Source of the DNA: Escherichia coli
GTDB lineage: Bacteria > Pseudomonadota > Gammaproteobacteria > Enterobacterales > Enterobacteriaceae
Length of the DNA stretch: 64,000 nt
NCBI RefSeq assembly: GCF_024223415.1
Contig: NZ_CP100500.1
Reading direction: 5' to 3' (one strand)
Shown here: in pieces, positions 33,701 through 36,700 of the stretch
Layout of the letters: the number at the start of each line of letters is the position of its first letter
How positions within the stretch are numbered: position 1 is the first letter of the stretch
Position numbers: made by a program

Positions 33701-36700
33701 TGGTGCCATTGAGCCAGTAACGGCGCGAGTTTTTCGGCATGTGGTGTAAGTTCATCCAGCGGTACACGCGCTGTTTCAACACCTGACTGCAAGGTATGAC
33801 GCCATTGCGCATTACGTTCGGCGTTACGCATGATCATCATCAGCGGTTTTTTGCCTGCCGCGACGGATTCATGCCAGGTCTGAAGATTGCGTTCGTTCAT
33901 CCAGGAGTAACCATTAATCGAACCACCGGCTCCGGAACCAAAGGCCAGACAATCGGCACCTTGTTTTATCAGCAGGTTATAGAGATTGCGTTCGCGTGTG
34001 GTACGGCCCCAGTGGCTGTTACTAATACAGCGCCAACCGGCTTCGTCCATGAAGTCACACCCTTGCAGATAAAGATCGCGACGTTCTGCCGGAGAGGGCA
34101 CGGTAGTACGCCCATTTTCCACGGCTTTGCCCAGCGGTGTATTGGGCAGGACATTGAGCGCATAGAGATCGACGCCATCGAGACCGATATCGCGGGCAAT
34201 AGCCAGATCTTCTCCCCAGGTTTGCGCATCCTGACCCGGCAGGCCAAACAGCAGGTCACAGACCACCGCAGCACGGTCACGTTTGACCAGGCTTTCCATA
34301 AACGCAATGGCGGTTGGGCCATCCGAGGTGCGGGCCATTTTCTTGCGGATTTTGCTGTTAAACGACTGAATACCAATTGAGAAGCGGTTTGCTCCTGCAT
34401 CAAGACAACCATCGATTCGCTCAGCGTCAAAATTCAGTACCCGGCCTTCGATAGTGATTTCACAATCAGGGGCCAGTGGCAGCTTTTCTCGTAATGTGGT
34501 GATGATTCTGGCCAAATCGTGTGCCGAAAGCGCGGAAGGCGTACCGCCACCGAAATAGACCGCGTGGATGGGGGCAGACTGATGCAATACGCTGTCCGCT
34601 TCCATTTCTATTTCACGAATCAGGGCGTCGGTATAATGAGCACACGCATCTTCATCAAAACGGTTCTGATAAAAACCACAAAACGTGCAGTGTGTCGCAC
34701 AAAAAGGAATGTGTAGGTAAACCAGTCGCTTACGAGGTGATGCCGTTTGATTGATCATCTCTTGCCAGGTCTGTGCCAGTTGCTCTTTGGCAACCGGAAT
34801 GGCTCCACGAAACGGCATCATGGCGCGCCTGTCTTTAAATGGCTGATCACCGTCTAAAGCAAAATGTGGCGTGAGATCCAGGGTGTTATTTGCGTTCATT
34901 CGTCTGATTTAAATCCATTTATTGCGGCCAAAGCTGCTGGTGTAAAGACTCAACGACATCAGCAATACGCGGACCCATTCCCAGAATCAGGTTTTGATCA
35001 ACGGTGATAATGCGCTGGTTTTTCCATGCGGCAGTGTGGGTAATTCCAGCAATAGAACGTAGCCGATTAATATCGCCATCGACCATTTGTGAGGTTACGA
35101 CAATCACTTCAGGGTTAGCCGCAATCAGTGATTCTGCACTGTAGCTTTTGTACTGCTGGTGGGTAGCGACGTTTTCTGCTCCGGCAAGCGAAAGAATGGC
35201 GCCCGCGACGCTGCCTTTACCGGCAACTTGTGGCGCACTTCCGCCTGCGGAGAGAATAAACATGGCTTTAACCGGGGCTTTTTGGGCTGCCACGTTTTGC
35301 TGTACTCGCTCCAGGCGTTGGTTGATCTGTGTCACCAGCGCGTCCCCTTGTTCAGGAACCTGTAACGTTTTTGCCAGTTGGCGAATGTTGGCGTACATCT
35401 GCTCAAGGGTGGCAGGCACACGCGGCAGGGTAACGACGTTGACTTTCTGCGCCCGTAGTTGGTCGAGCACAATTTGCGGTCCAGCATCCTGCCAGGTAAT
35501 TACGCTATCCGGGCGAAGTGACAAAATGCCTTCGCTGCTGAGTTGTTTCCAGTAGCCAATATGCGGCAGTTTGGCGGTTTCTGGTGGATAAGATGTCGTT
35601 TCATCGACACCAACCACGCGTTCGCCAGCGCCCATCGCGTAGATTAGCTCCGTCAGCGATCCTCCTGCGACCACGATACGTTCGGCAGCCGTTACGCTAA
35701 AAGCCCAGCTAAGAGCCAGTACTGCCGTAAACAATTTTTTTCGTTTTACTGCGGTCTTCGCGGCAGAGGCCACGGCTGAAATACATAACGTCAGTGGGGA
35801 AAAAAGAAACGGCCTGGTGATGATCCTTGGCATAATATGAGAACCCTTATCAAATTGAGAATGATCATGATTATCATTTGAGTTATATATGAAATACAAC
35901 CGTCGATTCAATACGCAAGGCGTTACAAGCGTATTTATTTTTGATTTTTATCAAGATGCTTCGTCAGCTAACGTTCTTGTTACCGACTAAATTTCATCGC
36001 GGGAAAAAGCTGAGAACCCAGAGATATCGAGGCTTGCAGAGCAAAGAGAAGAAAAAATTATCACTGTTAACGACAAAATTTAGTGATGAGGCATGGGGGG
36101 ATAACCATAAAAACAAGGTGGTTTACAGGGCGCAGGATAGGTTTCATAACCCCCTGTTTATTGTGTTAATGGTGGTTAAAAAAAACTTGATCATGAAAAA
36201 TTGATCGATAATAATTCTCATTATCACGTTTGCATTTAACAAAATACGACCATATGGATAACAAAACAATAGCATTTGCAAGGGATAACGCACAGCTCTC
36301 TTCACTCCTGATGGGGCATATCGTTTTGCCTGACAAAGAGGGCGTGCTTTTGCGTAATTGCCGAGTTATCAGGCAATTTCATGGGATATAAACGCCTGTA
36401 AACTCACCCGGCGAATATTATCGCTCTGAATTTTAAATAAATTTATTTTTCGCCAGCCACCCCGGTATTAACCCAGGCAGCCAGCATTTTTTATTTTCCT
36501 CATGGAGAATCGCTATGTCACGTCCGCAATTTACCTCGTTGCGTTTGAGTTTGTTGGCCTTGGCTGTTTCTGCCACCTTGCCAACGTTTGCTTTTGCTAC
36601 TGAAACCATGACCGTTACGGCAACGGGGAATGCCCGTAGTTCCTTCGAAGCGCCTATGATGGTCAGCGTCATCGACACTTCCGCTCCTGAAAATCAAACG

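What the first reader, a model, noticed from the sequence alone, without database searches (positions are those of the whole stretch)
34919..35911. chuT start codon and signal peptide are ambiguous
The only in-frame ATG gives a long, atypical N-terminal extension (MPRIITRPFLFSPLTLCISAVASAAKTAVKRKK) before the obvious signal-peptide core (LFTAVLALSWAFSVTAA). Either translation starts at an internal GTG or TTG, or the native ATG has been mutated. With the chuA lesion, this could be a second sign of decay in the locus.
Basis: inference. Interest (0 to 1): 0.2.

Follow-up and report, generated by a model that had tools for sequence, protein, structure and literature searches.

The report
chuT/shuT long signal peptide, ordinary
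The odd-looking start of this heme-transport gene is the normal, published and experimentally supported start shared by all E. coli and Shigella that carry the gene, not a sign of decay; the short ancestral start codon was lost by a 9-base deletion long ago in the E. coli lineage.

Summary
chuT/shuT lies on the minus strand, and its only in-frame ATG before the signal-peptide core (window 35833-35831) gives a 50-residue presequence: a 33-residue extension plus a classical core.

This is not strain-specific decay. The same ATG and extension occur in all 2236 chu-positive complete E. coli genomes, and RefSeq annotates that ATG. In Shigella dysenteriae the transcription start was mapped 42 nt upstream of it. 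That 42-nt leader plus the ATG drove translation of a gfp that has no start codon of its own (Wei et al. 2017).

Only this ATG has a Shine-Dalgarno match. GTG21 and TTG34 have none.

Fourteen other enterobacterial genera start 20 codons before the mature protein (MKKL...), directly after a receptor gene. E. albertii and two divergent Escherichia lineages keep that ATG as well as the upstream one. E. coli and Shigella removed it by an in-frame 9-nt deletion that is fixed in the species.

The extension evolves without codon-position bias. It still stays open, in frame and free of acidic residues.

Verdict: a known gene with a known start and low interest. The chuA lesion (a 46-nt deletion) is real but unrelated.

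The parts
34919..35833 (-). chuT/shuT coding sequence as annotated in RefSeq (304 codons plus the stop at 34921-34919)
   Evidence: PGAP annotates a 915-nt CDS from this ATG in SCU-316, O157 and ST131. Pfam Peripla_BP_2 covers residues 53-281. The mature part matches 254 of 256 residues of ShuT chain 2r7a.
35831..35833 (-). ATG1, the best-supported start codon
   Evidence: It is the only candidate with a Shine-Dalgarno duplex (-5.1 kcal/mol). It is conserved in all seven lineages aligned. In Wei et al. 2017 it was fused with the 42-nt leader to a gfp lacking a start codon, and GFP was made.
35834..35875 (-). 42-nt 5' leader. The transcription start is G at 35875. The leader contains the published RNA-thermometer hairpin that masks the ribosome-binding site.
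   Evidence: 5'-RACE in S. dysenteriae places the start 42 nt upstream of the ATG. The window sequence matches the published oligonucleotide except for one base. The hairpin pairing U14-18 with 29-33 is reproduced at 25 C. It is the least variable segment of the region, at 0.119.
35857..35875 (-). Fur box GATAATCATGATCATTCTC (+1 to +19)
   Evidence: Read directly from the sequence. It is identical to the functional Fur site of shuT in PMC5458455.
35844..35849 (-). Shine-Dalgarno UAAGGG. It reads AAGAG in S. dysenteriae, O157, ST131 and sister species, so the window has an A-to-G change at 35845.
   Evidence: Duplex with the 16S 3' end, alignment and the published oligonucleotide.
35882..35911 (-). 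Inferred promoter: -35 TTGAAT (35911-35906), an 18-nt spacer, and -10 TATAAC (35887-35882)
   Evidence: Inferred here from the sequence and the published transcription start. The pT-UTR forward primer starts at TGCGTATTGAATCGACGG. The simple scanner does not list it because the -10 hexamer ends in C.
35735..35833 (-). Escherichia-specific N-terminal extension, codons 1-33 (MPRIITRPFLFSPLTLCISAVASAAKTAVKRKK)
   Evidence: It is absent from orthologues of 14 other genera. It is present in every Escherichia lineage and in L004. Variable sites fall 10/15/11 across codon positions, so there is no coding bias, yet all lineages have 0 stops and 0 Asp/Glu.
35740..35741 (-). Junction of the 9-nt in-frame deletion that removed the ancestral start codon, between Arg31 (CGA) and Lys32 (AAA)
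   Evidence: Alignment with L008, L009 and L010, which carry AGTTCCATG, CAGCCCATG and CTCCCCATG at this point. No complete RefSeq E. coli genome has the undeleted form.
35771..35773 (-). GTG, codon 21, an alternative start candidate
   Evidence: In frame, but no Shine-Dalgarno match (+0.3 kcal/mol). Not conserved in E. albertii (ATA), L010 (GCG) or L004 (GCT).
35732..35734 (-). TTG, codon 34, an alternative start candidate (CTG in sister species)
   Evidence: No Shine-Dalgarno match (+0.1 kcal/mol). It would give a signal peptide with no charged n-region. Older annotations used it for a 271-aa product (P0006).
35684..35734 (-). Classical signal-peptide core LFTAVLALSWAFSVTAA, codons 34-50, with small residues at -3 and -1 (VTA|A or TAA|E)
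   Evidence: Hydropathy and cleavage-site heuristics. It aligns with the signal peptides of the MKKL... orthologues. The crystallised chain begins at Ala49.

Best explanation
This is the ordinary chuT/shuT gene, which encodes the periplasmic heme-binding protein of the Chu/Shu heme ABC importer. Translation starts at the ATG at window 35833. Transcription starts 42 nt upstream, at 35875, from a leader that carries a Fur box (+1 to +19) and a hairpin that masks the Shine-Dalgarno site at low temperature.

The product is a 304-residue precursor with an unusually long, two-part presequence. The first part is a 33-residue extension: a weakly basic tip, a hydrophobic stretch and a KTAVKRKK patch. 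The second part is a classical Sec signal core (LFTAVLALSWAFSVTAA). Signal peptidase I is inferred to cut near Ala49/Ala50.

The extension is a lineage-specific acquisition. In other Enterobacterales the gene starts at M-K-K-L, 20 codons before the mature protein, 2 nt after the stop of a same-strand receptor gene. In Escherichia the receptor gene chuA is divergent, so chuT acquired its own promoter, leader and an upstream in-frame ATG. E. coli and Shigella then lost the ancestral ATG by a fixed 9-nt in-frame deletion, which leaves the upstream ATG as the start.

Shown: the conservation, the deletion, the Shine-Dalgarno difference, and the published transcription start and reporter translation. 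Inferred: that the long precursor is the main physiological product, and that the second hydrophobic segment is the one used by Sec.
For: - **Annotation and spread.** RefSeq annotates this ATG in every genome inspected. The leader-to-mature-start segment is present at full length in 2236 of 2236 chu-positive complete genomes.
- **Published experiments (PMC5458455).** 5'-RACE places the transcription start 42 nt upstream of the ATG. The Fur site lies at +1 to +19. pXG10 gfp lacks a start codon, and the insert is the 42-nt leader plus the ATG. GFP was produced and was temperature-regulated.
- **Ribosome-binding sites.** The Shine-Dalgarno duplex is -5.1 kcal/mol for ATG1, against +0.3 for GTG21 and +0.1 for TTG34.
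- **Conservation.** ATG1 and its Shine-Dalgarno site are conserved in E. coli, E. albertii, E69, SCPM and L004. The leader is the least variable segment (0.119, against 0.387 for the extension).
- **Reading frame.** The frame from ATG1 is open, with no Asp or Glu, in all seven sequences, and both indels are multiples of 3. A neutral simulation gives a joint probability of about 0.2 for no stops and about 0.02 for no stops plus no acidic residues, before counting the indels.
- **Ancestral start.** It sits 60 nt before the mature anchor in 14 genera and is coupled to an upstream receptor gene. It is retained in three sister Escherichia lineages and deleted in E. coli. No RefSeq E. coli genome has the undeleted form.
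Against: - The extension shows no codon-position bias and varies as much as the non-coding DNA upstream, so its peptide sequence is not under detectable selection. Taken alone, that also fits an untranslated leader.
- A 33-residue n-region with an internal hydrophobic stretch is atypical for Sec substrates.
- No N-terminal sequence of the native precursor was available to me.
- The reporter used only the leader and the ATG. It shows that ATG1 can initiate, not that internal starts are unused.
- The no-acidic-residue test was chosen after seeing the data.
Confidence: 0.75

Rival explanations
1. The exported protein is made mainly from an internal non-ATG start. GTG at codon 21 would give MASAAKTAVKRKK plus the core, a textbook 30-residue signal peptide. 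TTG at codon 34 is the other candidate. The ATG1 product would then be minor, unproductive or regulatory.
For: A GTG21 start gives a canonical n-region of 13 residues with charge +5. The extension upstream evolves like non-coding DNA. The CTG-to-TTG change at codon 34 is specific to the lineage that lost the ancestral ATG. Older annotations chose TTG34 (P0006, 160 sequences).
Against: Neither codon has a Shine-Dalgarno match (+0.3 and +0.1 kcal/mol). GTG21 is not conserved outside E. coli and E69. A TTG34 product would have no positive n-region. ATG1 with its Shine-Dalgarno site is proven able to initiate, and ribosomes reading through from ATG1 in the same frame would occlude the internal sites.
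Confidence: 0.15
2. Both starts are used. ATG1 gives a long precursor, and an internal start (ATG28 in the chuT-type allele, GTG21 or TTG34 in the shuT-type) gives a short one. The two isoforms would differ in export efficiency or regulation.
For: Sister species carry two in-frame ATGs, ATG1 and MKK, so a two-start state existed ancestrally. The B2/ST131 chuT allele has gained an in-frame ATG at codon 28 (ACG in E69, ATG in L003).
Against: No direct evidence for two products. The internal sites lack Shine-Dalgarno matches. The ancestral ATG was lost twice, by deletion in E. coli and by substitution to CAG in L004, which suggests it was dispensable.
Confidence: 0.08
3. chuT in this strain is decaying: its proper start is mutated, as a companion to the chuA lesion.
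For: chuA in the window does carry a private 46-nt frameshifting deletion.
Against: The chuT region (1596 nt) is 100% identical to strain SCU-316, whose chuA is intact. The same start architecture occurs in all 2236 chu-positive genomes and in functional S. dysenteriae shuT. The ORF is intact, and the mature part matches 254 of 256 residues of crystallised ShuT.
Confidence: 0.02

Closest known systems
ShuT of Shigella dysenteriae / ChuT of pathogenic E. coli (periplasmic heme-binding protein; PDB 2r7a and 2rg7; regulation described in Wei, Kouse & Murphy 2017, PMC5458455)
   Same: The mature part matches 254 of 256 residues. The ATG, 42-nt leader, Fur box and hairpin are the same. The gene order chuT-W-X-Y-U-V with divergent chuA-chuS is the same.
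   Different: One base in the ribosome-binding site (AAGGG in place of AAGAG, window 35845) and two residues in the mature protein. Otherwise nothing.
Heme/hemin ABC substrate-binding proteins of Citrobacter, Kluyvera, Raoultella, Klebsiella, Pectobacterium and others (HmuT/HemT-like)
   Same: 48-85% identity across these genera, and 71-85% in the closer ones. The W-X-Y genes lie downstream in the one Citrobacter locus whose gene table was seen. The signal-peptide core and cleavage region are homologous.
   Different: They start at M-K-K-L, 20 codons before the mature protein and 2 nt after the stop of a same-strand ~720-aa TonB-dependent receptor. They have no 33-residue extension and no promoter of their own directly upstream.
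Extended signal peptide region (ESPR) of autotransporters and two-partner secretion proteins (N1-H1-N2-H2-C layout; from general knowledge)
   Same: The overall layout is alike: a charged tip, a first hydrophobic stretch, a second basic patch, a second hydrophobic core and a cleavage site, about 50 residues in total.
   Different: No sequence similarity and no Pfam match to any family in the extension. The first hydrophobic stretch is not conserved across lineages: L004 has Lys-Arg in the middle of it. This is a resemblance in layout only.

Membership tests
ChuT/ShuT heme ABC transporter substrate-binding protein (class III periplasmic binding protein) | Peripla_BP_2 fold/domain | tested here: met
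   Pfam PF01497, E = 6e-35, residues 53-281. 32 solved relatives were found, led by ShuT, PhuT and HmuT.
ChuT/ShuT heme ABC transporter substrate-binding protein (class III periplasmic binding protein) | Near-identity to experimentally characterised ShuT | tested here: met
   254 of 256 residues match chain 2r7a_A, E = 1.8e-161.
ChuT/ShuT heme ABC transporter substrate-binding protein (class III periplasmic binding protein) | Conserved tyrosine heme ligand in the HIGYWKQ motif (Tyr94 in 304-residue numbering; its role as ligand is from my own knowledge of the ShuT literature and was not verified here) | tested here: met
   Y94 is present in the window protein and nearly invariant across 13 orthologues. 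Ligand function was not tested.
ChuT/ShuT heme ABC transporter substrate-binding protein (class III periplasmic binding protein) | chu/shu locus context: chuT-W-X-Y-U-V with divergent chuA-chuS | tested here: met
   ORF layout in the window and the annotation of the identical locus in SCU-316.
ChuT/ShuT heme ABC transporter substrate-binding protein (class III periplasmic binding protein) | Fur-regulated leader with the transcription start 42 nt before the ATG | tested here: met
   The window sequence matches the published leader oligonucleotide in 44 of 45 positions. Regulation itself was not testable here.
Sec signal peptide cleaved by signal peptidase I | Positive n-region, hydrophobic core of 10-17 residues, small residues at -3 and -1 | tested here: met
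   The core is LFTAVLALSWAFSVTAA, preceded by KRKK, with VTA|A or TAA|E at the cleavage site. This is a heuristic only: no SignalP was available, and the n-region is atypically long if counted from ATG1.
Extended signal peptide region (ESPR, Pfam PF13018) | Sequence match to the ESPR motif | tested here: not met
   No Pfam hit in residues 1-59 other than two chance-level matches to unrelated families.
Tat (twin-arginine) signal peptide | S/T-R-R-x-F-L-K motif with two consecutive arginines | tested here: not met
   The sequence has T-R-P-F-L-F, with a single Arg. There is no TAT_signal hit. No lineage has RR at this position.
Lipoprotein signal peptide | Lipobox L-[AS]-[GA]-C | tested here: not met
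   L-T-L-C has Leu at -1. The Cys is replaced by Gly in L010 and is absent in L004.

The most novel reading that the evidence does not exclude
The 33-residue extension is a stretch of former 5' leader that was drawn into the coding region when chuT acquired its own promoter, and it became obligatory in E. coli and Shigella once the ancestral ATG was deleted. If it also has a function, ChuT would be a rare case of an ESPR-like two-part signal peptide on a periplasmic binding protein. Possible functions are delaying or gating Sec targeting of the heme-binding protein, or tying export to thermometer-controlled initiation. Alternatively the gene may make two precursor isoforms. Its freedom from stops and acidic residues across five lineages, despite roughly 40-60% variable sites, is compatible with weak compositional selection.
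Probability: 0.15. Interest if true: 0.4.

Novelty: already known. Interest (0 to 1): 0.15.

Why it matters
It matters little for biology at large. The gene, its start codon, its promoter, its Fur site and its RNA thermometer are all published, and the annotation is stable.

The analysis removes a false lead: chuT is not decaying along with chuA. It also explains why the N-terminus looks odd and why annotation pipelines have disagreed (304, 278 or 271 residues). The cause is a documented case of start-codon migration after an operon rearrangement, with the ancestral ATG lost twice independently.

That may be of minor use to people curating start sites, or to those studying how 5' leaders become coding sequence and how tolerant Sec signal peptides are of long n-regions.

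Tried and rejected
- **Literature on the N-terminus.** I looked for N-terminal sequencing or signal-peptide data on ShuT (Eakanunkul 2005, Ho 2007, Burkhard & Wilks 2008). None is held in the library. Text searches for ShuT with Tyr94 found nothing useful. The statement that published residue numbering (Tyr94) follows the 304-residue form therefore rests on my memory alone.
- **Annotation of a genome with both ATGs.** I tried to see how RefSeq annotates strain E69, which has both. It is not in the collection.
- **Promoter scan.** It did not recover the published promoter, because its -10 hexamer ends in C. The one site it listed (35861-35832) lies inside the leader and is at chance level.
- **Rfam.** There is no family for the shuT thermometer. 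A Hammerhead_HH9 match at 35705-35780 scores 20.8 bits against a 52-bit threshold and is rejected as chance.
- **Tat, lipoprotein and ESPR readings of the extension.** All were considered and rejected (see the membership tests).
- **Codon-position test.** I expected it to support coding. It did not (10/15/11), and I report that as evidence against peptide-level selection.

Full report
**What is there.** The finding covers the mechanical ORF 35911..34919 on the minus strand. The only in-frame ATG ahead of the hydrophobic signal core is at 35833-35831. In-frame non-ATG candidates are GTG at codon 21 (35773-35771) and TTG at codon 34 (35734-35732). The protein is ChuT/ShuT: Pfam Peripla_BP_2 covers residues 53-281, and residues 49-304 match 254 of 256 positions of the S. 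dysenteriae ShuT crystal chain 2r7a. A hydropathy scan confirms the odd layout, with two hydrophobic peaks (residues 8-25 and 33-47) separated by KTAVKRKK.

**How others annotate it, and how widespread it is.**
- The 1596-nt stretch from the chuT stop codon to the chuA start is present in 2236 of 5426 complete E. coli genomes. It is 100% identical in strain SCU-316.
- RefSeq annotates a 915-nt CDS from this same ATG in SCU-316, an O157 strain and an ST131 strain.
- The segment from the transcription start to the mature N-terminus (192 nt) is present at full length in all 2236 genomes.
- Public protein sets nevertheless hold three competing N-termini: 304 aa from the ATG (a cluster of 2700 sequences), 271 aa from TTG34 (160 sequences), and 278 aa from an ATG28 that exists only in the chuT-type allele.

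**Published experiments.** Wei, Kouse & Murphy 2017 (PMC5458455) studied shuT in S. dysenteriae.
- 5'-RACE and RT-PCR mapped the transcription start 42 nt upstream of the start codon.
- A functional Fur site lies at +1 to +19.
- The 42-nt leader confers temperature-dependent translation.
- Their supplement states that pXG10 gfp lacks a start codon. It gives the insert as GATAATCATGATCATTCTCAATTTGATAAGAGTTCTCATATTATG.

In the window this sequence runs from 35875 to 35831, with one difference (AAGGG for AAGAG, at 35845). ATG1 with its own ribosome-binding site therefore demonstrably initiates translation. The TTG that opens the mechanical ORF (35911) lies upstream of the transcription start; I infer from the sequence that it is the first base of the -35 hexamer TTGAAT. 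The published hairpin (U14-18 paired with 29-33) is reproduced by folding at 25 C for both variants.

**Comparing the candidate starts.**

| Candidate | Window position | Duplex with 16S 3' end | Other points |
|---|---|---|---|
| ATG1 | 35833-35831 | -5.1 kcal/mol (UAAGGG) | Conserved in all lineages aligned |
| GTG21 | 35773-35771 | +0.3 kcal/mol | Gives a textbook signal peptide, but not conserved in E. albertii, L010 or L004 |
| TTG34 | 35734-35732 | +0.1 kcal/mol | Leaves no charged n-region |

**Where the extension came from.** Orthologues at 48-85% identity were recovered from other genera. In the 14 genera examined, the protein begins M-K-K-L and an ATG lies exactly 60 nt before the mature E/D-R-x-V-V-A-G-G-S anchor. 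That ATG sits 2 nt (up to 8 nt in some genera) after the stop codon of a same-strand TonB-dependent receptor gene of about 720 codons.

In Escherichia the receptor gene chuA is divergent instead, about 700 nt away. E. albertii (L009) and two divergent 'E. coli' lineages (E69 = L008, SCPM-O-B-8794 = L010) keep the ancestral ATG, reading ...SSM-KKLF...QPM-KKLF and ...LPM-KKLF. They also carry the upstream ATG, its ribosome-binding site, the Fur box and an in-frame extension.

E. coli proper reads ...KR-KKLF. An in-frame 9-nt deletion removed the ancestral ATG, with its junction between 35741 and 35740. When the undeleted E69 sequence is searched against all complete E. coli genomes, the best hit is only 89.4% identical and 10 nt shorter, so the deletion appears fixed. 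A further lineage, from a sequencing-run assembly of unknown organism (L004), has the same divergent arrangement. It lost the ancestral ATG by substitution (CAG), and its single in-frame ATG is ATG1.

**Is the extension really translated?** The evidence is mixed, and I report both sides.

Against peptide-level selection, among six Escherichia sequences:

| Segment | Variable sites at codon positions 1/2/3 | Overall variability |
|---|---|---|
| Extension (codons 1-31) | 10/15/11 | 0.387 |
| Non-coding DNA further upstream | 14/18/16 | 0.378 |
| Signal-peptide core | 6/3/9 | 0.316 |
| First 20 mature codons | 1/0/10 | 0.183 |
| 42-nt leader | 1/1/3 | 0.119 |

For translation:
- The leader with the ribosome-binding site and ATG1 is the most conserved segment of the region (0.119).
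- The ATG1 frame has no stop codon and no Asp or Glu in any of the seven sequences. The other two frames contain stops or 2-6 acidic residues.
- Both indels, of 9 nt and of 24-33 nt, are multiples of three.
- Random-substitution simulations give a joint probability of about 0.2 for no stops, and about 0.02 for no stops plus no acidic residues, before the indels are counted. The acidic-residue criterion was chosen after seeing the data, so this is suggestive only.

The pattern fits a translated but nearly unconstrained n-region that must only stay open, in frame and non-acidic.

**Mechanism proposed.** Under low iron, Fur releases the +1 to +19 site. At 37 C the leader hairpin opens, ribosomes start at ATG1, and a 304-residue precursor is made. 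The KRKK patch and the second hydrophobic segment act as the Sec signal, and signal peptidase I cuts near Ala49/Ala50; the crystallised chain begins at Ala49. The first hydrophobic stretch is not conserved (L004 has Lys-Arg within it) and is probably passive. The steps from the precursor onward are inferred, not shown. The extension has no twin-arginine motif, no lipobox and no ESPR or other Pfam match.

**Relation to the chuA lesion.** Across 11 kb, the window differs from SCU-316 by seven mismatches, two single-base indels near slp, and one 46-nt deletion inside chuA (window 38250|38251). That deletion shifts the frame and truncates ChuA at 593 residues. All of the best matches among 2235 genomes span the 46 extra bases, so the deletion appears private to this sequence. 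No chuT-specific change accompanies it. The two observations are unrelated.

**Verdict.** The ambiguity is understandable, and an ancestral ATG was indeed lost, but the start is known and functional, and there is no decay. This is a known gene with a known start; the small evolutionary explanation is the only new element. Interest is low.

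Noticed in passing
window 38250-38251 (chuA, + strand, ORF 36515-38296): Compared with strain SCU-316, which is otherwise nearly identical, chuA lacks 46 nt here. This shifts the frame and ends ChuA at 593 of 660 residues. Every best match among 2235 complete E. coli genomes spans the 46 extra bases, so the deletion looks private to this sequence.
   Followed up: partly
window 36486-36517 (+): The Rfam shuA_thermo family (RF02597, the chuA/shuA 5' UTR thermometer) matches above its gathering score, at 60.1 against 58 bits. The chuA leader is therefore intact even though the coding region is broken.
   Followed up: no
window 35845 (-): The chuT ribosome-binding site reads AAGGG here and in SCU-316. 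It reads AAGAG in S. dysenteriae, O157, ST131 and all sister lineages seen. The change turns a U-A pair of the published thermometer hairpin into U-G, and it lengthens the match to the 16S 3' end. The predicted hairpin is slightly weaker, at -8.3 against -9.0 kcal/mol at 25 C.
   Followed up: partly
L003 (ST131) and protein P0009; window codon 28 = 35752-35750: The chuT-type allele of B2/ST131 strains has an in-frame ATG at codon 28 (KTMVKRKK), where the window has GCA (Ala) and E69 has ACG. Some gene callers use it as the start, giving a 278-aa product. It would give a canonical 23-residue signal peptide.
   Followed up: partly
L005, L011-L038 (Citrobacter, Kluyvera, Raoultella, Pectobacterium and others): Outside Escherichia the T gene starts 2-8 nt after the stop of a same-strand TonB-dependent receptor of about 720 aa. 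That receptor is longer than the 660-aa ChuA. The Escherichia chu locus therefore looks like a rearranged mosaic with a different, divergently placed receptor.
   Followed up: partly
L007 (JAIJJM010000641.1, labelled MAG: Collinsella sp.): A 1862-nt contig binned as Collinsella (Actinobacteria) carries a chuT 99% identical to the window. It is almost certainly E. coli DNA mis-binned into that metagenome-assembled genome.
   Followed up: no
window 40416-40473 and 40731, 40802 (slp/dctR side of the locus): Three pairs of adjacent mismatches and two single-base indels separate the window from SCU-316 in this stretch. RefSeq marks slp there as frameshifted in SCU-316. Which of the two sequences is intact was not checked.
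   Followed up: no
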